Shown here: piece after piece, positions 1,591 to 14,053 of the stretch
How the letters are laid out: each line of letters starts with the position of its first letter
Numbering within the stretch: the stretch's first letter is position 1
Source of the DNA: a virus
Lineage: Duplodnaviria > Heunggongvirae > Uroviricota > Caudoviricetes
Length of the DNA stretch: 29,605 nucleotides
IMG/VR virus record: IMGVR_UViG_2547132415_000023
Direction: 5' to 3' (one strand)
Translations under genes and position numbers: made by a program
Notes under the pieces: model-generated
Databases searched by the model: none
What the model was told of the DNA's origin: nothing
What the model saw: the letters and a program-made list of their open reading frames with translations, nothing else

Positions 1591-2451
1591 TTATACGTGT
1601 TTTTCCAATGTGAAAACTACAACCCCGGCAGGCGTAATGTCGGTAATGTTGCATTCAAACTCAGCAGACTTATTTGACAACCTGACTTTTCCACCAGGTA
1701 AACGAATTACATCAAAAACATCAAGAGCGCCGTCGATATCAATTAACCAGCGACCATTACTTATATTCGAAGCAGAACAGTCGACAAGCCAAGAGGCAGC
1801 TACACCGTCAACAAAAATCAATTCCCCTGAGTTAGAAGGAATCATTGAGGGGTCAGGATGCCACGTTCCTGCATCCTTAAGCTCACCAGATTCAAGACGA
1901 GATTTTTTAATAGAAAAACCAGATGTGACATCTTCCCTGTTAGCTCGCATTTGCCCCTTGCCTGTTGCTAACCATTCCAGTGACGTATCGGTATCAAGAG
2001 CGCATGTAACAACAACATCACCAGGGAAAAAATCTCGCCTTACCCATGTGCTAATTGTGCCAGAGGAAATGCCGAGCAAATCACCGAGCTCCTTTTGCAT
2101 GGTAAAGCCATACGCATCAAGAATCCTACGCAAAACGGTTTTACCACCATTCGTCATAATCTCGTCATAAAGCTCTTTGCCTTTTAACTTGCAACTGGCT
2201 CGCTCGTGATTTGCATTTGCAAGCTCTCCATTTACAAGCCAATTGATATCAGCTCCCGTGTCAAGACAACACCTAACTATGACATTGCCAGGTATTGCAT
2301 CACGCTGAACCCAGCCGCTAACGCTGTGTTTAGCGATACCTAGCAGGTCAGCCAAATCCTTTTGCATCTTGACCCCATAGGCTGACATTAAGCGTTCCAA
2401 TACGCCGTTCGTTGCACTAACACGCCACTGAACATCAAGCTCAGAACTCAT
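1591..2451 (-). CDS. cI: 186-type CI immunity repressor with tandemly duplicated N-terminal HTH domain
   Basis: 286 aa. Residues ~14-75 (VLERLMSAYGVKMQKDLADLLGIAKHSVSGWVQRDAIPGNVIVRCCLDTGADINWLVNGE) and ~102-163 (VLRRILDAYGFTMQKELGDLLGISSGTISTWVRRDFFPGDVVVTCALDTDTSLEWLATGK) are clear internal repeats of a phage CI-type HTH domain. Divergent from the apl/cII operon and upstream of int, as in 186. Confidence 0.85.
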   Translation of the reverse strand: MSSELDVQWRVSATNGVLERLMSAYGVKMQKDLADLLGIAKHSVSGWVQRDAIPGNVIVRCCLDTGADINWLVNGELANANHERASCKLKGKELYDEIMTNGGKTVLRRILDAYGFTMQKELGDLLGISSGTISTWVRRDFFPGDVVVTCALDTDTSLEWLATGKGQMRANREDVTSGFSIKKSRLESGELKDAGTWHPDPSMIPSNSGELIFVDGVAASWLVDCSASNISNGRWLIDIDGALDVFDVIRLPGGKVRLSNKSAEFECNITDITPAGVVVFTLEKHV

Positions 2452-4291: not shown

Positions 4292-4512
4292 TGGCCGACG
4301 CAATGGATTTAGCACAACTGCGCGAGCAGGAAGACCGCGAACGCCACATCAGCAACGCACGCACCCGTATCGCTGCACCTTCCCGTTTTCTTTGCGAGGA
4401 ATGTGACGCACCAATCCCGGAAGCTCGCCGCATTGCGATTCCGGGCGTGGCTTTTTGCGTAACCTGCCAGCAAATCGCAGAGCTAAAAAACAAACACTAT
4501 CGGGGGGTATAA
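4291..4512 (+). CDS. TraR/DksA-family C4 zinc-finger protein
   Basis: 73 aa with CEECDAPIP....CVTCQ four-cysteine motif near the C-terminus; immediately upstream of gene A. Confidence 0.75.
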   Translation: MADAMDLAQLREQEDRERHISNARTRIAAPSRFLCEECDAPIPEARRIAIPGVAFCVTCQQIAELKNKHYRGV

Positions 4513-4513
4513 A

Positions 4514-6736
4514 TTGGCTGTTCAATTCGCTTATCCGTGGAACGTCCCACGGTCGGCAATCTCCAGCCCATACCTTACTTATGAGCAACAGCATCGCCGC
4601 GACCGTATGTTCGCGGCTTTGCTGCATGCAAAAAAGGTGCTTTCTCTCCAGCCCGACTGCGTGCGGTTAGATGTTTATCGCACTGCTGCGGTGCTGGAGC
4701 AAAATCAGGGTAGTCAACGAGCCAATGCATTTTTAATCAACTTCTGCAAAAAGGCATTGCCGCGTCTTGAAATGGTCGCAAAAAAATACGAATGCGCTGG
4801 TATCAACAGCAAGGTATCAACCGCTGTTTTTGGAAGTCATTTTGATACTCAGCAAATGCAATATCTGTCGTCACGCATGGTTAATATGGTCGCCCGATAT
4901 AACCGTCTCCCGGATATGTCGCGCGCTGATGTTGACCTGTTGGCCGCTGATATTGCTAATTTCATTCGTGGTGAACTTGCCAACATTAATGACCACGGAT
5001 TCGGCGAGCTTAAAACGCTGTACACCTGGTATATTCGTGCTGGCTTTATTTCCCTCCAATTTAACGTTATCCCACCACATTGGGAGCGGGTTGAAAAAAA
5101 ATATGTCGGTGCGGATGAAATCGCACCGGCTATCGCCAAAATGTTTAACGATGGGTGGTGGCGCGGTCGTTTGCGCCGTGTTGCAGCTACGTGGCGCGAA
5201 CACCTGCAAATTGCAGTCGGCAACGTCAGTAAGAAAAAAAACACTTACGCGAGTAAAAACTGCGTGACTGACTGGCGTGAACAAAAGCGCCGCACTCGTG
5301 AATTTCTCAAAGGTCTGGATCTCGAAGACGAAGACGGCAACCGTATCAGCCTGATTGAAAAATATGATGGCTCAGTTGCTAACCCTGCGATTCGCCGCTG
5401 TGAGCTCATGACCCGCATTCGTGGGTTTGAAAACATCTGTAATGAGCTCGGTTATGTCGGTGAGTTTTACACTCTAACCGCGCCGTCAAAATATCACGCC
5501 ACGACTAAAGCCGGTTACCGTAACAGCAAATGGAGCGGTGCCAGCCCGGCTGACACGCAAAACTATCTAACCGGTATCTGGGCGCGTATCCGTGCCAAAC
5601 TACATCGGGAAGATGTCCGTATTTTCGGTATTCGTGTCGCCGAGCCTCATCACGACGGCACTCCACACTGGCACATGCTGATGTTCATGCTGCCGGAAGA
5701 TGTTGAATATGTTCGCTCCATCGTCCGTAAATACGCATGGAAAGAAGACCGCCACGAACTGAAAAGCGATAAATCCAAAAAAGCACGTTTCCACGCCGAG
5801 TCCATTGACCCGGAGAAAGGCAGCGCAACCGGCTATGTTGCTAAATACATCTCAAAAAATATCGACGGTTATGCTCTCGATGGTGAAACCGATGATGAAA
5901 GCGGTGAGCTGCTGAAAGAGACAGCCCCCGCCGTTTCAGCATGGGCTGCGCGCTGGCACATCCGTCAGTTTCAGTTTATTGGTGGTGCGCCGGTGACGGT
6001 TTACCGTGAGTTGCGTCGCCTCGCTGATACCGAAACCGCGCACGGTCTGAGCGTTGAGTTTGCCGCCGTCCATGATGCCGCCGACGCTGGTGACTGGGCT
6101 GGTTATGTTAATGCTCAGGGTGGGCCGTTTGTCCGTCGCGATGATTTACAGGTGCGCACACTGTATGAACCGCGTACCGAGCTTAATCAGTACGGTGAGG
6201 AAACGGTATGTATTAAGGGGGTCTACGATTCCTCCATAGGTGCAGGAAGCCCGATTTTAACCCGGCTCACTCAGTGGAAGATTGTTCCGAAGCGTGCTGT
6301 TGATTTGGCCGTTGACCTTCAGGACGGCAAAGCCGTCCCTCGGAGTTCTGTCAATAACTGTACGGGAAGCGAAAGCGATCCACCGATACTGGATTTAACA
6401 AAACCACTGAGTCGGCGTGAAAGACGAGAATTGACCAACCGACTCAGGAAGCAAAAGCCAGCAGCACGGCGAAAATTCATCCACGGAACGGATGAGCAAA
6501 ACGCAGCTATAGCTAAAACTATCGACGAGATACATCTGACAACCGGCATTAATATCAGCCGGGGCGAAGCCCTGCACCTGATGGCCGGTGGTAAAAGTTG
6601 TTTTGATGGTAAATGGCTACGCGGAACGGCCAAAGGAGAAATATTTTCCGCAGCACCATCGCATGAGGCTAAAGCTCGGAAAATCCTTAATCGTGTTGCG
6701 GCGATGGCTGAAGCATCAAAACCAATACATGAGTAA
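4514..6736 (+). CDS. A: Replication initiation endonuclease gpA (rolling-circle initiator)
   Basis: 740 aa. HxH metal motif region EPHHDGTPHWHMLMF and catalytic-tyrosine region GYVAKYISKNIDGYA are typical of P2/186 A proteins. Position after the early genes fits. Confidence 0.9.
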   Translation: MAVQFAYPWNVPRSAISSPYLTYEQQHRRDRMFAALLHAKKVLSLQPDCVRLDVYRTAAVLEQNQGSQRANAFLINFCKKALPRLEMVAKKYECAGINSKVSTAVFGSHFDTQQMQYLSSRMVNMVARYNRLPDMSRADVDLLAADIANFIRGELANINDHGFGELKTLYTWYIRAGFISLQFNVIPPHWERVEKKYVGADEIAPAIAKMFNDGWWRGRLRRVAATWREHLQIAVGNVSKKKNTYASKNCVTDWREQKRRTREFLKGLDLEDEDGNRISLIEKYDGSVANPAIRRCELMTRIRGFENICNELGYVGEFYTLTAPSKYHATTKAGYRNSKWSGASPADTQNYLTGIWARIRAKLHREDVRIFGIRVAEPHHDGTPHWHMLMFMLPEDVEYVRSIVRKYAWKEDRHELKSDKSKKARFHAESIDPEKGSATGYVAKYISKNIDGYALDGETDDESGELLKETAPAVSAWAARWHIRQFQFIGGAPVTVYRELRRLADTETAHGLSVEFAAVHDAADAGDWAGYVNAQGGPFVRRDDLQVRTLYEPRTELNQYGEETVCIKGVYDSSIGAGSPILTRLTQWKIVPKRAVDLAVDLQDGKAVPRSSVNNCTGSESDPPILDLTKPLSRRERRELTNRLRKQKPAARRKFIHGTDEQNAAIAKTIDEIHLTTGINISRGEALHLMAGGKSCFDGKWLRGTAKGEIFSAAPSHEAKARKILNRVAAMAEASKPIHE

Positions 6737-7035: not shown

Positions 7036-7266
7036 ATGAGAATCAATATCACGTTGGATAAAGAGCAAAAATTAGGGCAACAGATCATTGATGCTTTTCA
7101 GAATGAAATAACACATCGAGTACAATGCGTTTTTCCTGCAACAAAAGTTAACGTTAAGAAAGGGTCAATGACTAGTGTAGAGGCTATCGGATTCGATAAA
7201 GAGACGGACAGAGAAACATTAGGCAGCATATTACAAGAGATTTGGGAAGACGATAGCTGGCGTTAA
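7036..7266 (+). CDS. DinI-family protein
   Basis: 76 aa: MRINITLDK...IIDAF..EITHRVQCVFP...ILQEIWEDDSW matches the DinI pattern (MRIEVTI...RRIQYAFP...ILQETWE..DDW). Same frame as the preceding ORF. Confidence 0.75.
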   Translation: MRINITLDKEQKLGQQIIDAFQNEITHRVQCVFPATKVNVKKGSMTSVEAIGFDKETDRETLGSILQEIWEDDSWR

Positions 7267-7308
7267 ACATAATAACCGTGCTGGCGCAAAAACTAGCTTT
7301 TTGCGTCG

Positions 7309-7349
7309 GCGGGGTTGAGTAACGAGCCCACGAGGCTTAAGTCCTGCCT
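7309..7349. repeat. Imperfect ~40-bp direct repeat, copy 1
   Basis: GGCGGGGTTGAGTAACGAGCCCACGAGGC... compared with GGCGGGGTTGAACAACGAGCTACGCGAGGC... at 7711; each follows a small hairpin placed just after a stop codon. Confidence 0.45.
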
Positions 7350-7465
7350 TTCAAAATTTCTCAATGTGCTATTAATGACACGCCCATGATTAATGAGGCA
7401 TGACCTGAGATGGTTTTATAGTGGCGTTTTGACGGCACTGATTAAAATTCATTGAGGGCGATAAT

Positions 7466-7693
7466 ATGCATCGACTATCAGGTGAAATTCCGCATCACAA
7501 AACCAAAAGCATCAAACTGATGGCCATCGTTCATCGTCTGCAGCAGATAATGGTCAATGAGAATTTGACACCCACAGAGCTGGTCGGGTGTGCCGAAATA
7601 GTCAGGGATAATTACGGCAAGCTGGATAGCATCAGCAGGCCGATACAATACGCCCCCCACCACGTCGACGATAGCAAACGTCGTCAGCGCTGA
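7466..7693 (+). CDS. Hypothetical small protein
   Basis: 75 aa ORF with GAGGGCG RBS, bracketed by the two ~40-bp direct repeats. No recognisable motif. Confidence 0.35.
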   Translation: MHRLSGEIPHHKTKSIKLMAIVHRLQQIMVNENLTPTELVGCAEIVRDNYGKLDSISRPIQYAPHHVDDSKRRQR

Positions 7694-7710
7694 AACTTGT
7701 TTTCAGGGCT

Positions 7711-7752
7711 GGCGGGGTTGAACAACGAGCTACGCGAGGCGTTAGCCCGCCC
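7711..7752. repeat. Imperfect ~40-bp direct repeat, copy 2
   Basis: See copy 1; about 80% identical over ~40 bp. Confidence 0.45.
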
Positions 7753-7956
7753 CGTAGAGACCGCTCCAAACCGTCGCCCTGAATGCCGGTTTTTTTATGT
7801 CATTTTCCCGCGATTTCCCCGTTTTTTAGCCGTGCATGCATCAGGTGCATGGTTTTGCATGCGTCAGTCTTGCCCCTTCTGTCCGTGCGCCGCCAGAGCT
7901 GGCGCGGATCCAGAGTTGTCATGCAACTGCATTAAAACCGACCCATAAAGCGGGCA

Positions 7957-7975
7957 GGCGTGGCGGGGAAAGCAT
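7957..7975 (+). other. cos site (19-nt cohesive-end sequence) of a P2/186-type phage
   Basis: GGCGTGGCGGGGAAAGCAT followed by TGCGCGC matches my recollection of the P2/186 cohesive ends (P2 GGCGAGGCGGGGAAAGCAC). Orientation agrees with a leftward portal gene to its right. Confidence 0.55.
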
Positions 7976-8239
7976 TGCGCGCAACGAACAAAAATGATTT
8001 TTGGAACTTTGATTGTTTTGGCAACGTTGTCTTAATGTAGTTGATGTCTAATGACTTATGTGCTGTCATAGCGGCAATAGCTTGTATGACTCTTATCGAT
8101 AGACTAATTAAATTATATAAATCAGATTACTAATGTGCTAAAGCGATTATAAGACTAACTCCATCATAAATTAAAGAATTAAGTTAGTCTGTTAAAATAG
8201 GTGAATTGAGAGAAAGTAATTTATAAATTAGGAGGAAAT

Positions 8240-9568
8240 ATGAATTGTAATGAACTTTTTTATTCCGCTGACAACCATGCATTAACGTTGCATGAAAGAA
8301 CAAAGTTATCTACGGTTGTTTTAGATAAAGGCATTACAAAAAAGAATGAATTAATAGAGTTTTTGAGAGAGGAATTAAAAGGGTCATTTGGTTGCGACGT
8401 TAAGTTTTGGTTGCAAGGATCATACAAAAGTCACACTCTCATTAAGCCTGTTGATAAGTTTTCTTCATATGATATTGATGTGGGCATTTATTTGTTCTTT
8501 GATGCAGAGGCTGAAGAGATTAATTCAAAGGATGTAAAGGATACGTTGAAAGATGCTTTACTATCTTACTGCGAAATAAATAACGAGGCGAAGATTCAGG
8601 AGTCAAAGAATGCGTGTGAGGGATTAATATTCTCCTCCTTTCTTACAATCGACACCCCTATCTATTATAAAACAACGACAAAAGTAAAACTTGCAACAGA
8701 TAAAGGTTGGAGTGATAGCGATCCAAAAGCTATACAAGACTGGTTAACAAATTCACATGCTACAAAACCAGCTAGAGCATTAATGAAACGGCTCGTCCGT
8801 TACTTTAAAGCATGGGTTAATGTACAGTGGCACGGTACTTCATTTAAAAAAATACCTTCGTTAGCGATAAATGTCCTAGTTGCTAATAACTTAAGTATCC
8901 ATGATAGAGAGGACGATTGTTTTATATATACAGTGTTAGCTATTTGTGAGCAATTAGAGCGCTCAATGGAAGTAGAGAATCCTCTTAATGGCACCAATTT
9001 GCTTGCGATGCCTGATGATGCTTTAACTTTCGCGCATCAAAAGCTTCAACAATTGAAGAAAGTTTGTATAGATTGTATAGATGCCAACGAAAATGAAAGG
9101 AATATAAATTTTTCTAATTTATTCCAACATTATTTCCCTCAGGTAACGATCGTATCAAACGGAGGGGGAACTGGTCTGCCAGCGATTACTACAACCCCAG
9201 AAATATCTGTCTGTCGTTATGATAAACATGGTTCCCACATTGAAACTGTCTTAACGGATCAGTTAACGGTTGATAAAGGTGACTCATTAACATTCACCAT
9301 TTGTAATCCTGGGGCTTTTAGCCCTTATGCTCAGACGAAATGGACGGTTAGAAATGTTGGTAGCCAAGCTAATGATGCCAATGATATAGGGCACATTGAA
9401 TATGGAAAACCCAACGAAAGTCATAAACGGGGAACGTCTTATACTGGCTCGCATACGATGGAATGTATGGTTACTTACAATGGCGCTGTTTTAGGTTTAA
9501 AAGTTATTCAAGTTATAGTACGGCCTGCAATTTCTGTTAAAAGACCTATTAGAAAGTTTTGGAGATGA
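8240..9568 (+). CDS. cGAS/DncV-like (SMODS-type) nucleotidyltransferase with C-terminal extension; candidate signal synthase of a defence module
   Basis: 442 aa, strong RBS AGGAGG at 8231-8236. Pol-beta NTase signature G60-S61 ... D78-I-D80 (QGSYKSHTLIKPVDKFSSYDIDVGIYLF), with further acidic residues downstream. About 140 C-terminal residues are Gly/Thr/Ser-rich and beta-like with no recognised match. Low-GC gene. Confidence 0.7.
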   Translation: MNCNELFYSADNHALTLHERTKLSTVVLDKGITKKNELIEFLREELKGSFGCDVKFWLQGSYKSHTLIKPVDKFSSYDIDVGIYLFFDAEAEEINSKDVKDTLKDALLSYCEINNEAKIQESKNACEGLIFSSFLTIDTPIYYKTTTKVKLATDKGWSDSDPKAIQDWLTNSHATKPARALMKRLVRYFKAWVNVQWHGTSFKKIPSLAINVLVANNLSIHDREDDCFIYTVLAICEQLERSMEVENPLNGTNLLAMPDDALTFAHQKLQQLKKVCIDCIDANENERNINFSNLFQHYFPQVTIVSNGGGTGLPAITTTPEISVCRYDKHGSHIETVLTDQLTVDKGDSLTFTICNPGAFSPYAQTKWTVRNVGSQANDANDIGHIEYGKPNESHKRGTSYTGSHTMECMVTYNGAVLGLKVIQVIVRPAISVKRPIRKFWR

Positions 9569-9572
9569 TAGT

Positions 9573-10151
9573 ATGTGGGAACTAATGCCACCAAAAGCTA
9601 AATACGGCTTATCAATTGGAATTTCTATTCTTATCTTCCTTATGTATAAGGAATGTTTTAAGTTTCCTTTTGCTAGATCTATCTCCTTTACGATCAGTAC
9701 CATTACCATCCTTGCTTGGTTATTTGGAAAGTATTTATGGAAATATATTTATTTTGGTATCTTTAAACGGAATTTTTGCCCAGATTTTAATGGCACGTGG
9801 ACGGCTACGATAAAATCAAATTTTAGCCCGAATACTCAGGTTGAATTTCCATTAAAGATAGAGGCTAATTTCTTCTCTGTTAAGATGACAGGCAATACCA
9901 CTATCGGAAGAACCTACACAAATCTATGTAAAATTGTTCGTGCAGAAGATGATAGTTTCGAGTTGGTATATATGTTTAGAGTTATGAATGACTCTCCATC
10001 TGATTCTGATGCTGTTTTCTATGAAGGGGCGGCGAGGTTACGTGTAGTTGACATTGACTCTATGCAAATGATAGGGGTCTTTTGGACAAATCGATGTTGG
10101 CAAAATAATTTAAACACTGCTGGTTCTATAACTTTAACGAAACAGAGTTAG
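9573..10151 (+). CDS. Small membrane effector candidate: two N-terminal TM helices plus beta-rich C-terminal domain (Cap15-like)
   Basis: 192 aa, starts 4 nt after the NTase stop with its own GGAG RBS. Hydrophobic segments LSIGISILIFLMY (~13-25) and ISFTISTITILAWLF (~37-51); the C-terminal ~130 aa shows alternating hydrophobic patterns suggesting beta strands. Confidence 0.65.
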   Translation: MWELMPPKAKYGLSIGISILIFLMYKECFKFPFARSISFTISTITILAWLFGKYLWKYIYFGIFKRNFCPDFNGTWTATIKSNFSPNTQVEFPLKIEANFFSVKMTGNTTIGRTYTNLCKIVRAEDDSFELVYMFRVMNDSPSDSDAVFYEGAARLRVVDIDSMQMIGVFWTNRCWQNNLNTAGSITLTKQS

Positions 10152-10207
10152 CTTTCATTAATTTCAATCCTACTTTTCTTGGGTCAGGATTAACAGACTC
10201 TGTCAGA

Positions 10208-10238
10208 GTTGGTACGTACCATTTAGTTGGTACGTACC
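10208..10238. repeat. Tandem pair of 10-bp perfect palindromes (GTTGGTACGTACC x2)
   Basis: GTTGGTACGTACC at 10208-10220 and 10226-10238, each containing GGTACGTACC; adjacent CTCTG-T-CAGAG inverted repeat at ~10198-10208. In the convergent gap between the 2TM gene and portal gene ends. Confidence 0.5.
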
Positions 10239-10245
10239 CTATCAT

Positions 10246-11262
10246 CTAATCCTCGTCAATACTGTAATCCTTGAAGCGGACCACTTCCATTCCCAGCCAG
10301 TCATTAATTTCTTTAAATCGCTCCTGCAACGGTGTCAGCTCATTACGTACGAACACCTTTGCCACCTTCTCAACATCACCGAGCGACGCGATGTTTTCAG
10401 GCTTGCCCCCCATTAGCTGGAACGGCACGCGGTGTGCATCGAGCAGGTCAGCGGCGCTCACCTTTTTAATGTTAAAGAAATCATCTTTCGTCGCGACCTC
10501 ACTCAAAGGCACGATCTTGATGCCGTCGGGTTTACCGTTTGGCGCATAGAAAAACAGGTTTTTAAAATTCCCTAGTCCTTTTGAGTCACGCATGGCCGAG
10601 CGCAGCGCATCAACATCCGTGCTGCTTTGTGCCGCATCGGTCACATACATGATGTAACCCGCATGCGCCCCGTTCTGGTAATACTTGCGACGAAAAAGCG
10701 TGGCGGATTCATTCAGCCACGCGGAATTGAGTGCGCTCAGGTATTCCGGCATGCCATAAAGCTCCTGATTGATGTCAGGCTCCAGCAGGTGAAACACCGA
10801 GCCGGGTGCGAACTGGTGCGGGTTGTTAAAACTCGAAATGTACCAGTAAACTCCATCCTCAACGCCACGACGGGTATATTTAGCAGGTGATGTTTCCAGT
10901 TTTATAAGCTGGCCGGTGACGCTCATGCGCTTCTCAAGATAGCCGTTGGCAAAGACCAGATAATCCAGTACGAGGCGGCTGAAATCCTGACGTGACAGCA
11001 GCGGGTGCGGGATGTAGGTACTCGCCAGAATGTTACGTTTCACGTAAATCGGCGAGCTGTGATGAACGGCGGCGCGCAGGCTTTTTGCCAGACCAGAGAA
11101 GTTGACCGGCGGCTCGTACCACTTACCGTTATTGATGCACTCGACATAATCGAGGATATCGCGACGATCCAGAACGGCAGAGGGCTCGCCAAAGGTGAAC
11201 GCCTCCATTTTTTGCGGTGCGCTAACGGTCGTTGTGGTGGGTATCTTCAGTTGCTTTTTCAT
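10246..11262 (-). CDS. Q: Portal protein gpQ
   Basis: 338 aa, size and position (leftward, next to cos, preceding P) match P2 Q. Confidence 0.9.
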   Translation of the reverse strand: MKKQLKIPTTTTVSAPQKMEAFTFGEPSAVLDRRDILDYVECINNGKWYEPPVNFSGLAKSLRAAVHHSSPIYVKRNILASTYIPHPLLSRQDFSRLVLDYLVFANGYLEKRMSVTGQLIKLETSPAKYTRRGVEDGVYWYISSFNNPHQFAPGSVFHLLEPDINQELYGMPEYLSALNSAWLNESATLFRRKYYQNGAHAGYIMYVTDAAQSSTDVDALRSAMRDSKGLGNFKNLFFYAPNGKPDGIKIVPLSEVATKDDFFNIKKVSAADLLDAHRVPFQLMGGKPENIASLGDVEKVAKVFVRNELTPLQERFKEINDWLGMEVVRFKDYSIDED

Positions 11263-11263
11263 G

Positions 11264-13033
11264 TCAGTTAATATCCAGAATTGTCGTTGAATGCATGCCG
11301 CTACCGGCGGAAAGAGGTTCGTTTAACAGGGCGTGCATGGTCGCCCATGCGATATCGGCGTGACTGGCTTCCTCGGTACGGCAGGCCTCGTAGGTGGCGC
11401 TGCGCCCGCTGCTGGTCATGGTTTTGCGAATCGACATAAACGACTGCGTGACGTCGGTCGCCCCGGCGTCGTACTCCAGGCAGCCGCGGCGAATGGTGTC
11501 TTTCGCCTTGAGCACCATTGCGGTTTTCATTTCAGGGGTGTAACGGATGCCGCGTGCAGCCGGGTAGAATGAGCGCACCAACTGGAATACGCCGAGGCCG
11601 AGGCCGGTTGCGTCAATGCCGATGTATTCGACGTTGTATTTCTCGGTCAGTTTGCGGATGCCCTCAGCCTGAGCGGCAAAGTCCATGCCTTTCCACTGGT
11701 GGCGCTCCAGCATGCGGAACTTGCCACCAGAGACCACTGGCGGCGCGAGCACGACGCACCCGGCACTGTCGCCGGTGTGTGACGGGTCGTAGCCAATCCA
11801 GACAGGACGAGAGCCGAACGGATGGTCGGCGAACGGGGCAAAGTCCTCCCATTCCTCCATCACATCGACCATGCAGCGCTGCAGCTCCTCGAACGGGAAT
11901 ACCGACGCTTTATCGTCGACAAACTCGCACATAAACAGGTTCTTAAAGTCCTCATCACTGTTTTCGCGTTTGAGCTGGTCGAGGTCGAACAGGGTGCAGC
12001 CACCCGCAAGGGCGTCCTCAATGGTGACAATCTGCCGCCACTGGCCATCGTCGCAGAGCTGGCCACCGGCGAGCGCGCTGTGACTGATGTCGATTTCGAT
12101 GCGGTCGGCAATCCGGCTGCGCCCCTTGTTGAACAGCTCGCCAGACCAGAAGGGGTAAGCACCGTGCGCCAGCGTGGAAGGTGTCGAAAAATAGGTCGAG
12201 CGCAGGTGCTTTTGCGAGGCCATGCCCGAGGCGACTTTGCGCAGTTTCTGAAAATTCGGGATCCAGAATATTTCATCGACATACAGGTCGCCGTTATGGC
12301 TCTGCGCGGTGTTGGAATTGGTACCGAGAAAAATCAGTTTTGCGCCGTTGTTACCAATGGCAATCGGGTCGCCGGTCAGGTCAACGTCGACCAATCGCGC
12401 AAACTGGATGATGTATTCGCGGAACACGTAAGCCTGCGTTTTACTGGCTGATAAAAATATCTGGTTATGGCCGGTTTTGAGTGCGCGCAGCAGTGCCTCG
12501 CGGGAGAAATAGAACGTCGCGCCAATCTGGCGGGATTTGAGAATGTCACGAATACGGTGCTCCAGTCCTGCGCGGTACCACTGCAACTGGTACTCGAAAG
12601 ACTGGTCGAAAAATAATTCCTCCAGTTTCTCGATAGCCTCGTCGCTGAAAAAATTCTTTTTCGGCTTTTTGCGCTCCCCTTTGTTGCGGTTGGCGACGTT
12701 GGGGTTAAGGTCGGCCTCGTTGCCGGTCTGGCTGTAGCGGTTGACGCGCGCCAGCCGTTCAATCTGCCGTCCGAGCAGGTCAATCTCTTTGAAATCGCCG
12801 CCTGTCTTTTGCGGCTTGGCGATGAGCTGAATCAGCCTAGCCTCAAGGCTGCTTTCAACGCGGGAAATCGGCGCGATGCCGTCCCAGCCGTCGCGCTGCT
12901 TCCAGCTCTGCACGGTCGGGCGCTTGACCTGCAGCATTTCGGCAATCTGTGGCACGGAAAAACCCTGCCAGTAAAGCAGCGATGCCTGCCGTCGCGGGTC
13001 ATGCAACAAGGTTGTATCGGTGGAAATGGTCAT
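11264..13033 (-). CDS. P: Terminase large (ATPase) subunit gpP
   Basis: 589 aa, leftward, directly upstream of Q with a 1-nt gap; size matches P2 P (~590 aa). Confidence 0.9.
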   Translation of the reverse strand: MTISTDTTLLHDPRRQASLLYWQGFSVPQIAEMLQVKRPTVQSWKQRDGWDGIAPISRVESSLEARLIQLIAKPQKTGGDFKEIDLLGRQIERLARVNRYSQTGNEADLNPNVANRNKGERKKPKKNFFSDEAIEKLEELFFDQSFEYQLQWYRAGLEHRIRDILKSRQIGATFYFSREALLRALKTGHNQIFLSASKTQAYVFREYIIQFARLVDVDLTGDPIAIGNNGAKLIFLGTNSNTAQSHNGDLYVDEIFWIPNFQKLRKVASGMASQKHLRSTYFSTPSTLAHGAYPFWSGELFNKGRSRIADRIEIDISHSALAGGQLCDDGQWRQIVTIEDALAGGCTLFDLDQLKRENSDEDFKNLFMCEFVDDKASVFPFEELQRCMVDVMEEWEDFAPFADHPFGSRPVWIGYDPSHTGDSAGCVVLAPPVVSGGKFRMLERHQWKGMDFAAQAEGIRKLTEKYNVEYIGIDATGLGLGVFQLVRSFYPAARGIRYTPEMKTAMVLKAKDTIRRGCLEYDAGATDVTQSFMSIRKTMTSSGRSATYEACRTEEASHADIAWATMHALLNEPLSAGSGMHSTTILDIN

Positions 13034-13198: not shown

Positions 13199-14053
13199 AT
13201 GGCAAAAAAAGTCTCAAAATTCTTTCGCATCGGCGTCGAGGGTGACACCTGCGACGGCCGCATTATCAGCGGCAACGATATTCAGGAAATGGCCGAATCG
13301 TTTGACCCTCGCGTCTACGGTTGCCGCATTAACCTTGAGCATATTCGCGGTCTCTTTCCTGATGGCGACTTCAAACGCTTAGGCGATGTGGTTGAACTGA
13401 AAGCTGAAATAATTGACGACGATTCTGCGCTTAACGGCAAATGGGCGTTGTTCGCCAGAATCACCCCAACCGACGACCTGATTGCGATGAATAAAAAATT
13501 GCAGAAGGTCTACACCTCAATGGAAATTCAGCCGAATTTTGCCAATACCGGCAAATGCTACCTCGTCGGCCTTGCTGTCACCGATGACCCGGCGAGCCTC
13601 GGCACTGAATACCTCGAATTCTGCCGCAACGCGAAGCACAACCCTCTGCAGCGCTTTAAGGCCAACCCTGAAAACGTCTTTTCCGCTGCCACGCTGGCCG
13701 AACTGGAATTTGAAGACGTTCCCGATACGGTGCTAAACAGCCTGGCAGATAAGGTGAAAGCCATTTTCAGCCGTAAGCAGGTCAGCGACGATGCGCGCCT
13801 GAATGATGTGCATGAAGCGGTGACCACCGTCAGCGAGCATGTGCAGACCAACCTCACTGCGCAGGATCAGCGTCTTTCCGCTATGGAAGCCGCGCTTACC
13901 ACCTTTAAACAGGAACTGACCGGCAAGATTGAAGAAACCAGCCAGGCATTTTCCGCCCTGAAAGCCACCCTCGACAAAACCGAAAGTTTCAGCCAGCCGC
14001 GACGCACGAAAGCCAGCGGCGGTGGTGGCGATGAGCTGCTGACCGACTGCTGA
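13199..14053 (+). CDS. O: Capsid scaffolding protein gpO
   Basis: 284 aa, first gene of the rightward late operon divergent from P; size identical to P2 O. Confidence 0.85.
   Translation: MAKKVSKFFRIGVEGDTCDGRIISGNDIQEMAESFDPRVYGCRINLEHIRGLFPDGDFKRLGDVVELKAEIIDDDSALNGKWALFARITPTDDLIAMNKKLQKVYTSMEIQPNFANTGKCYLVGLAVTDDPASLGTEYLEFCRNAKHNPLQRFKANPENVFSAATLAELEFEDVPDTVLNSLADKVKAIFSRKQVSDDARLNDVHEAVTTVSEHVQTNLTAQDQRLSAMEAALTTFKQELTGKIEETSQAFSALKATLDKTESFSQPRRTKASGGGGDELLTDC

What the first reader, a model, noticed from the sequence alone, without database searches (positions are those of the whole stretch)
9573..10151. Effector candidate: 2TM anchor plus compact beta-rich domain
Two hydrophobic helices within the first ~55 residues are followed by ~135 residues of alternating hydrophobic/polar pattern, suggesting a beta-barrel-like ligand-binding domain. 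This matches the described organisation of Cap15-type CBASS membrane effectors, but the sequence itself is not recognisable to me, so it may be a new family. The NTase stop and effector start are 4 nt apart, implying stoichiometric co-expression.
Basis: partly seen in the sequence, partly recalled or inferred. Interest (0 to 1): 0.6.

Follow-up and report, generated by a model that had tools for sequence, protein, structure and literature searches.

The report
Cap15 CBASS effector in P2-like prophage
This gene encodes an ordinary member of the already characterised Cap15 family of membrane-disrupting anti-phage effectors, sitting next to its cyclic-nucleotide synthase as a two-gene CBASS defence system that a P2/186-like prophage carries as cargo.

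The parts
9573..10151 (+). cap15-like effector gene (192 aa plus stop)
   Evidence: ORF. 65% identity over 191 residues to E. albertii Cap15, UniProt P0DXA2. PADLOC CBASS 2TM effector PDLC00682, 1e-29. pN 0.107 against pS 0.689 versus L006.
9603..9647 (+). hydrophobic core of predicted transmembrane helix 1 (res 11-25)
   Evidence: No charged residue in 32 of 32 relatives; family-mean KD15 maximum 2.13. AF2 helix 7-28.
9678..9728 (+). hydrophobic core of predicted transmembrane helix 2 (res 36-52)
   Evidence: No charged residue in 32 of 32 relatives; family-mean KD15 maximum 1.78. AF2 helix 33-59. Weak Pfam Cap15_TM match at res 23-57, E 0.075.
9777..10142 (+). Cap15-type eight-stranded beta-barrel, the predicted cyclic-dinucleotide receptor domain (res 69-190)
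9561..9564 (+). GGAG ribosome-binding site of the effector, inside the 3' end of the CD-NTase gene
   Evidence: Read from the sequence; 8 nt before the ATG at 9573.
8240..9568 (+). CD-NTase gene (CdnB-type cyclase with C-terminal AGS-C domain), 442 aa
   Evidence: Pfam DncV-like_NTFase 3.8e-18 and AGS_C 2.2e-17. PADLOC cyclase PDLC00824, 1e-159. 71% identity to the E. albertii CD-NTase encoded next to Cap15. G60 S61, D78 x D80 and D138 align with the DncV active site.
9212..9520 (+). AGS-C (Ig-like) domain of the cyclase (res 325-427)
   Evidence: Pfam PF18134, 63.7 bits against a cut-off of 26.7.
8230..8235 (+). AGGAGG ribosome-binding site of the cyclase
   Evidence: Read from the sequence.
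7983..10245 (.). AT-rich cargo cassette holding only the two CBASS genes, between cos and the portal gene
   Evidence: GC 0.28-0.43 across the cassette against 0.49-0.63 in the flanks; 36% for the two genes against 52% for the window. DNA identity to other E. coli P2-like prophages stops at about 7982.
7957..7975 (+). cos site of the prophage (GGCGTGGCGGGGAAAGCAT)
   Evidence: Two mismatches to the P2 cos sequence I supplied from memory; 0.02 matches expected by chance.
10246..11262 (-). portal gene (gpQ homologue), right border of the hotspot
   Evidence: Pfam Phage_portal, 9.1e-13.
4514..6736 (+). replication gene A (gpA), left border of the hotspot
   Evidence: Pfam Phage_GPA, 2.3e-130.

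Best explanation
The gene encodes a Cap15 orthologue. Cap15 is the membrane effector of a two-gene type I CBASS anti-phage system (CdnB-type CD-NTase with AGS-C, plus Cap15). The system is carried as AT-rich cargo in the gpA-gpQ defence hotspot of a 186/P2-like prophage.

Shown here: gene structure, operon arrangement, homology, fold, an intact cyclase active site, and the prophage context.

Inferred from characterised relatives: when another phage infects the lysogen, the CD-NTase is activated. For clade B06 cyclases, escape mutations map to the phage prohead protease/scaffold. The cyclase then makes a cyclic dinucleotide. The cytoplasmic beta-barrel of Cap15 binds it, Cap15 assembles into higher-order oligomers through its two-helix membrane anchor, the inner membrane is disrupted, and the cell dies before the invader completes replication (abortive infection). 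This protects the lysogen population and so the prophage.

The identity of the nucleotide is not established here.
For: Effector homology: 65% identity, no gaps, over 191 residues to E. albertii Cap15 (UniProt P0DXA2, named 'CD-NTase-associated protein 15').

Cyclase homology: 71% identity over all 442 residues to the adjacent E. albertii CD-NTase.

Family models: 16 PADLOC CBASS '2TM' effector models hit, best 1e-29. All 32 relatives hit PF18153.

Cyclase: DncV-like NTase and AGS_C domains, PADLOC cyclase 1e-159, and catalytic GS / DxD / D aligned to DncV.

Conserved gene pair: the pairing is the same in every context read, namely E. coli, Serratia and Pectobacterium.

Literature: Cap15 has 2 TM helices plus a beta-barrel that senses cyclic dinucleotides, oligomerises and disrupts the inner membrane (PMC10419184, PMC12657230, PMC12657218). 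CdnB06-Cap15 operons with AGS-C defend E. coli against phages (bioRxiv 10.1101/2023.05.21.541620). gpA-gpQ is a defence hotspot of P2-like phages (PMC9122126).
Against: The query itself scores just below Pfam's gathering threshold for Cap15_CD_rec (28.8 against 31.2 bits), and Cap15_TM is only E 0.075. NCBIfam has no model for it.

The two hydrophobic cores are short (15 and 17 residues), and no dedicated TM predictor was run.

No binding, oligomerisation, toxicity or defence data exist for this protein. Its ligand is unknown; uracil-containing dinucleotides are reported for another Cap15, whose partner cyclase I recall to be clade E (PMC10419184).

Members of the same protein family can work with the opposite logic (OptE of Panoptes).
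Confidence: 0.9

Rival explanations
1. Inverse (Panoptes/OptE-like) signalling. The cyclase is constitutively active and its nucleotide keeps the 2TM-beta effector monomeric and harmless. Phage sponges or nucleases that deplete the nucleotide release the effector, which oligomerises and kills the cell.
For: OptE/2TM-beta belongs to the same S-2TM-beta family and uses the same fold with the opposite logic (PMC12657218, PMC12657230). Sequence alone does not tell which state the ligand stabilises.
Against: The partner is a CD-NTase 71% identical to E. albertii CdnB, not an mCpol. The effector is 65% identical to the Cap15 of that operon. CdnB06-Cap15 operons were well tolerated in E. coli and were used with an effector-null control as classical CBASS. 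The cassette holds only these two genes.
Confidence: 0.04
2. The pair is present but non-functional or silent cargo, for example a decayed cassette or one never expressed from the prophage.
For: No + strand sigma-70-like promoter was found by the simple scan in 7250-10300. AT-rich horizontally acquired DNA is often H-NS-silenced (general knowledge; the abstract of bioRxiv 10.64898/2026.09.05.749240 says so for immunity loci).
Against: Both ORFs are full length with good Shine-Dalgarno sites. The catalytic residues are intact. Purifying selection is strong, pN 0.107 against pS 0.689. The identical protein is seen on about 220 contigs. The promoter scan is a crude consensus match.
Confidence: 0.04
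3. A phage membrane protein serving the prophage's own biology (holin-like lysis timing or superinfection exclusion at the membrane), independent of nucleotide signalling.
For: It is a small 2-TM protein inside a prophage. P2-like phages carry exclusion genes such as old and tin at this hotspot.
Against: The prophage has its own lysis cassette elsewhere: Phage_holin_3_2, LysC and neighbouring genes in L001 17189-18524, which corresponds to the window about 428 nt lower. Fold and sequence place the soluble domain in the Cap15 nucleotide-receptor family. The gene always travels with a CD-NTase, also outside prophages, as in the Pectobacterium island.
Confidence: 0.02

Closest known systems
Escherichia albertii CdnB-Cap15 type I CBASS operon (Cap15 = UniProt P0DXA2, CAP15_ESCAL; called EaCdnB06-Cap15 in bioRxiv 10.1101/2023.05.21.541620)
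   Same: Same two-gene order and the same protein lengths: 442/443-aa cyclase with AGS-C, then a 192-194-aa effector. Effector 65% identical, cyclase 71% identical, with no gaps. Same invariant motifs (FCPDFNGxW, YEGAARLRV, FWTNRCW, NTAG).
   Different: The genes are 4 nt apart here, whereas in E. albertii the annotated Cap15 start overlaps the cyclase stop. The genomic setting differs: here the cos-portal slot of a P2/186-like prophage. The closest E. coli relative of the E. albertii protein (L017) lies in a small island next to an AlpA-family gene near xseA/guaBA, and the E. albertii locus L008 has a 199-aa ORF at the matching position that I did not identify. About one third of the residues differ, mostly in the TM hairpin and strand surfaces.
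Yersinia aleksiciae Cap15 beta-barrel (PDB 7N34, 7N35)
   Different: Only 18-21% sequence identity. That protein is reported as a sensor of uracil-containing dinucleotides (PMC10419184); from memory its partner cyclase is clade E. Here the cyclase is clade B-like, so the ligand may differ.
OptE / 2TM-beta effector of the Panoptes (mCpol) system
   Same: Same S-2TM-beta architecture and a membrane-collapse output (PMC12657218, PMC12657230).
   Different: Panoptes pairs the effector with an mCpol di-adenylate cyclase, and the nucleotide inhibits the effector. Here the partner is a CD-NTase with AGS-C, and there is no mCpol in the cassette.
Defence hotspot between gpA and gpQ of P2-like phages (old/tin locus; Rousset et al. 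2022, PMC9122126)
   Same: The cassette lies between gpA (4514-6736) and gpQ (10246-11262), next to cos. It is AT-rich and replaceable: a related E. coli prophage has a DUF2188 gene in the same slot.
   Different: CBASS is not named among the curated systems in the text or the held supplements of that paper. Here the cargo is on the portal side of cos. From memory of the P2 map, old and tin lie on the gpA side.

Membership tests
Cap15 / S-2TM-beta effectors (Pfam PF18153 + PF23471) | Significant sequence similarity to an experimentally characterised Cap15 | tested here: met
   65% identity, 80% positives, E 1e-98 over 191 residues to E. albertii Cap15, P0DXA2.
Cap15 / S-2TM-beta effectors (Pfam PF18153 + PF23471) | C-terminal minimal eight-stranded beta-barrel of the Cap15 cyclic-dinucleotide receptor type | tested here: met
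Cap15 / S-2TM-beta effectors (Pfam PF18153 + PF23471) | Two N-terminal transmembrane helices | tested here: met
   Two charge-free hydrophobic cores (res 11-25, 36-52) are conserved in 32 of 32 relatives. AF2 helices at 7-28 and 33-59. Caveats: the query's 19-residue hydropathy peaks at 1.45-1.46, Pfam Cap15_TM is only E 0.075, and no TMHMM-type tool was available.
Cap15 / S-2TM-beta effectors (Pfam PF18153 + PF23471) | Encoded next to a nucleotide-second-messenger synthase | tested here: met
   The CD-NTase ends 4 nt upstream. The same pairing is seen in L001-L008.
Cap15 / S-2TM-beta effectors (Pfam PF18153 + PF23471) | Binds a cyclic dinucleotide in the barrel; ligand-driven oligomerisation; inner-membrane disruption | not testable with these tools
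   Needs thermal-shift or EMSA assays with the purified barrel, SEC or native PAGE, and membrane-integrity microscopy. The ligand-contact residues of Cap15 could not be checked because the primary paper (Mol Cell 2021, PMID 34784509) is not held.
Type I CBASS (cyclase + effector only) | CD-NTase with intact GS...DxD...D active site | tested here: met
   G60 S61, D78 and D80, and D138 align with the DncV catalytic residues. Pfam DncV-like_NTFase 3.8e-18. PADLOC cyclase 1e-159. NCBIfam cGAS NF041078 scores 147 bits, just under its cut-off of 150.
Type I CBASS (cyclase + effector only) | No Cap2/Cap3 (E1/E2/JAB), HORMA/TRIP13 or other ancillary genes | tested here: met
   The AT-rich cassette at about 7983-10245 contains only the two ORFs; its flanks are cos and the portal gene.
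Type I CBASS (cyclase + effector only) | Confers phage resistance by abortive infection | not testable with these tools
   Shown for related CdnB06-Cap15 operons (bioRxiv 10.1101/2023.05.21.541620), not for this one.
Clade B (B06-like) CD-NTase with AGS-C | C-terminal AGS-C Ig-like domain fused to the cyclase, and close similarity to EaCdnB06 | tested here: met
   AGS_C at 63.7 bits, res 325-427. 71% identity to the E. albertii enzyme. The four B06 enzymes studied are said to be about 50-75% similar to each other. No phylogeny was built here.
Panoptes (mCpol + OptE) | Partner synthase is a minimal Cas10-palm (mCpol) cyclase | tested here: not met
   The partner is a DncV-like CD-NTase. There is no other ORF in the cassette.
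P2-like gpA-gpQ defence hotspot cargo | Variable, compositionally distinct genes between replication gene A and portal gene Q, adjacent to cos | tested here: met
   gpA at 4514-6736, cos at 7957-7975, portal at 10246-11262. GC drop. A different gene occupies the same slot in a related prophage. Hotspot definition from PMC9122126.

The most novel reading that the evidence does not exclude
The only non-routine reading left open concerns the setting, not the protein.

A CBASS whose cyclase clade (B06, with AGS-C) appears to sense late virion-assembly proteins of invading phages (prohead protease/scaffold) is carried by a temperate phage. That phage itself makes a protease-scaffold fusion, gpO (13199-14053). 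The system also sits at the extreme cos-proximal end of the virion DNA.

The prophage would then need, and might have evolved, a way to keep its own assembly from triggering the system, or it might use the trigger during induction.

A lesser variant: this Cap15 subfamily recognises a nucleotide different from the uracil-containing dinucleotides reported for Y. aleksiciae Cap15.
Probability: 0.1. Interest if true: 0.4.

Novelty: new member of a known kind. Interest (0 to 1): 0.14.

Why it matters
It matters little for discovery. Standard defence-annotation tools (PADLOC HMMs) already call both genes, and a 65-71% identical operon has been studied experimentally.

It has modest value in three respects:
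- It is a clean natural example of a minimal CBASS carried as cargo by a P2/186-like prophage, on the portal side of cos. This extends the catalogue of systems found in that hotspot.
- Public records still label the identical protein 'hypothetical protein', so its annotation can be improved.
- It offers a convenient E. coli-native system for asking how a prophage-borne, assembly-sensing CBASS avoids self-activation when the prophage is induced.

Tried and rejected
1. New family. Rejected by 65% identity to Cap15 P0DXA2 and by the fold match.

2. Near-identical DNA of the cassette in complete E. coli genomes and in 50,697 phage records. Only the first 83 nt of the query (the cos region) match. 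tblastn of the effector against the phage records finds nothing. PHROGs nevertheless holds close families for both proteins (phrog_23442 3e-77, phrog_17525 2e-169, both 'unknown function'), and the exact protein is on about 220 contigs elsewhere. The cassette is therefore uncommon in those two collections, not unknown.

3. NCBIfam has no model for the effector.

4. The primary Cap15 paper (PMID 34784509) is not held. I could not check conservation of the published ligand-contact residues or learn the E. albertii CdnB product. Searches for 'EaCdnB' and for 'Escherichia albertii' with 'Cap15' gave nothing further.

5. The afdb50 fold library was unavailable. BFVD gave one meaningful hit, a viral 'SMODS-associating 2TM beta-strand rich effector' protein, E 3.4e-5.

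The E. albertii locus was obtained through the genome scan instead.

7. The promoter/terminator consensus scan of 7250-10300 found no + strand promoter and no terminator after the effector. This is uninformative given the crude method.

8. No tRNA in the window.

Full report
**1. The observation**

The ORF 9573..10151 on the + strand starts with ATG and encodes 192 residues. The preceding 442-codon ORF (8240..9568) ends with TGA at 9566-9568. That leaves the four bases TAGT before the effector ATG. A GGAG lies at 9561-9564, 8 nt before the start. The 4-nt spacing is therefore correct.

The N-terminal third has two stretches without any charged residue: 11-25 (YGLSIGISILIFLMY) and 36-52 (SISFTISTITILAWLFG). 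They are flanked by Lys and Arg. In an alignment of 32 relatives neither stretch carries a charged residue in any sequence, and the family-mean Kyte-Doolittle maxima in 15-residue windows are 2.13 and 1.78. In the query alone the 19-residue window peaks at only 1.45-1.46, so the hydrophobic cores are short.

An AlphaFold2 model built on that alignment has mean pLDDT 84.2 and pTM 0.71. It places helices at 7-28 and 33-59, a short helix at 62-67, and eight strands between 74 and 190.

The gene is real and constrained:
- 37 homologues at 41-99% identity are nearly all 190-196 residues long.
- Against an 80%-identical relative, pN is 0.107 and pS is 0.689.

No dedicated TM-topology predictor was available.

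**2. What it is**

The protein is not unrecognisable.
- It hits 16 PADLOC models of CBASS '2TM' effectors, best 1e-29.
- The Pfam Cap15_CD_rec alignment covers positions 3-122 of the 122-position profile, at 28.8 bits. This is slightly under the gathering cut-off of 31.2.
- All 32 aligned relatives match that model at E <= 0.01, best 4.4e-10.

A look-up of the 90%-identity clusters was decisive. One homologue cluster contains the E. albertii protein that UniProt names CD-NTase-associated protein 15 (P0DXA2, CAP15_ESCAL). A direct BLASTP gives 65% identity and 80% positives without gaps over 191 residues, E 1e-98.

Structure agrees.
- The only Foldseek PDB hits below E 1e-3 are the three Cap15 chains, target-normalised TM 0.76-0.81.
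- A profile of the family finds Cap15 as the best PDB sequence hit (E 0.071), with a shared C-x-P-x3-G-x-W motif at the entry to strand 1.
- In the viral structure library the single significant hit is a 'SMODS-associating 2TM beta-strand rich effector' protein.

The family is large. There are 1123 representatives at 50% identity with E <= 1e-3, and 237 with E <= 1e-10, in a 1.84-billion-protein library.

**3. The partner and the operon**

The upstream 442-aa protein carries a DncV-like nucleotidyltransferase domain (3.8e-18) and a C-terminal AGS-C domain (2.2e-17). It matches a PADLOC oligonucleotide-cyclase model at 1e-159. It scores 147 bits against the NCBIfam cGAS model, whose cut-off is 150.

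Its G60-S61, D78-x-D80 and D138 align with the catalytic residues of V. cholerae DncV. It is 71% identical over all 442 residues to the CD-NTase encoded immediately upstream of Cap15 in E. albertii NBRC 107761.

A preprint calls that operon EaCdnB06-Cap15 (bioRxiv 10.1101/2023.05.21.541620). It reports the following:
- Clade B cyclases of type I CBASS almost always carry the Ig-like AGS-C domain.
- CdnB06-Cap15 operons defend E. coli.
- Phages that escape them carry mutations in the prohead protease/scaffold gene.

The cyclase-effector pair is conserved wherever I read the context:
- a near-identical P2-like prophage contig (L001);
- other P2-like prophages (L006, L007);
- a Serratia P2-like prophage (L004, L005);
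- an integrase-bounded island in Pectobacterium parmentieri (L002, L003).

No Cap2/Cap3 or HORMA/TRIP13 genes are present. This is a minimal type I CBASS.

**4. The setting**

The window is a 186/P2-like prophage. From the gene calls of the near-identical contig and Pfam hits on the window, it carries:
- integrase and a 186-type CI repressor;
- gpA (4514-6736);
- a DinI-family gene (7036-7266);
- portal (10246-11262, - strand) and terminase (11264-13033, - strand);
- scaffold gpO, capsid, lysis and tail genes.

The two CBASS genes have 36% GC against 52% for the window. GC falls to 0.28-0.43 between about 7950 and 10200.

A 19-nt match to the P2 cos sequence (GGCGTGGCGGGGAAAGCAT; the P2 query and the 186 assignment come from memory) lies at 7957-7975, with 0.02 matches expected by chance. 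DNA identity to other E. coli P2-like prophages ends at about 7982. The cassette therefore occupies the slot between cos and the portal gene. A related E. coli prophage has a small DUF2188 gene in that slot.

Rousset et al. 2022 defined the region between gpA and gpQ, next to cos, as a defence hotspot of P2-like phages (PMC9122126). CBASS is not named among their curated systems in the text or the held supplements.

**5. How it most likely works**

Shown here: operon, domains, fold, active site, context.

Inferred from characterised relatives: infection by another phage activates the cyclase. Its cyclic dinucleotide binds the cytoplasmic barrel of Cap15. Cap15 forms higher-order oligomers in the inner membrane and disrupts it, which aborts the infection (PMC10419184, PMC12657230, PMC12657218).

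The nucleotide is unknown. Uracil-containing dinucleotides are reported for another Cap15 (PMC10419184), but this cyclase is clade B-like. I could not obtain the primary Cap15 paper, so I could not compare ligand-contact residues.

**6. Rivals**

- Panoptes-like inverse signalling. It uses the same family, but the nucleotide inhibits the effector. It is possible in principle. It is disfavoured because the partner is a CD-NTase rather than an mCpol, and because both proteins are close orthologues of a classically behaving operon.
- A silent or decayed cassette. This is disfavoured by intact ORFs, intact catalytic residues, good ribosome-binding sites and strong purifying selection.
- A phage lysis or exclusion protein unrelated to nucleotide signalling. 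This is excluded by homology and by the invariable linkage to a CD-NTase, also outside prophages.

**7. Verdict**

The suggestion of a new family is wrong: this is an orthologue of a characterised Cap15. The identical protein is already in public databases as 'hypothetical protein [Escherichia coli]' on about 220 contigs. The inference of stoichiometric co-expression from a 4-nt gap is not warranted.

The finding is a new member of a known kind, of low interest. The only open question worth a bench experiment is how a prophage that itself makes a protease-scaffold protein (gpO) tolerates a CBASS whose relatives respond to phage assembly proteins.

Noticed in passing
window 7957-7975 (cos) relative to 8240-10151: A 19-nt match to the P2 cos sequence lies upstream of the CBASS cassette, so the cargo sits between cos and the portal gene. 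From memory of the P2 map, old and tin lie on the gpA side. In the linear virion DNA the cassette would be at the very end of the genome. L006 has the same layout (cos-like site at 4410-4428, cyclase at 4668-5999).
   Followed up: partly
window 10207-10220 and 10225-10238: A perfect tandem pair of AGTTGGTACGTACC, each containing the palindrome GGTACGTACC, lies 4 nt apart between the effector stop and the portal stop. The core TTGGTACGTACC occurs twice at the same place in L001, L006 and L007 (P2-borne close relatives). It is absent from the other 15 loci, including Serratia, Pectobacterium and E. albertii. Its function is unknown; it could be a protein-binding site or a recombination scar.
   Followed up: partly
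window 7036-7266 (+), with the CI repressor gene at 1591-2451 (-): A DinI-family protein (Pfam 1.4e-17) is encoded just before cos in a prophage with a 186-type CI repressor. This recalls the SOS-controlled Tum antirepressor of phage 186 (from memory) and would make the prophage SOS-inducible. Not tested.
   Followed up: no
L004 7576-9318 (Serratia P2-like prophage): In the Serratia relative the same cyclase-Cap15 pair shares the gpA-portal interval with a 580-aa HEPN_LA2681-domain protein, so two candidate defence cargoes sit in one hotspot.
   Followed up: no
L002/L003 6677-9900 (Pectobacterium parmentieri): Outside prophages, the pair sits in an island bounded by two integrase genes, next to a CcdA/CcdB toxin-antitoxin pair and several unannotated genes.
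   Followed up: no
L018 1062-2549 and 4194-4505 (E. coli O68:H12 P2-like prophage): A related prophage has a group II intron reverse transcriptase/maturase inserted just after gpA, and a DUF2188 gene in the cos-portal slot that CBASS occupies here.
   Followed up: no
L013 and L016 (Vibrio ichthyoenteri ATCC 700023): One genome carries two members of the family on different contigs, 58% and 32% identical to the query. This suggests two distinct S-2TM-beta systems in one strain. Their partner genes were not examined.
   Followed up: no
window 13199-14053 (+), gpO: The prophage's own capsid scaffold gene (Phage_GPO_N) encodes what I recall to be a protease-scaffold fusion. In other phages, escape mutations against CdnB06-Cap15 CBASS map to this functional class. 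Whether the resident CBASS ignores gpO is an open question.
   Followed up: no
window 4514-6736 (+): The mechanical ORF for gpA starts at a TTG and gives 740 aa. The gene called on the near-identical contig gives 709 aa (L001 5035-7164), so the true start is probably an internal codon about 31 codons downstream.
   Followed up: no
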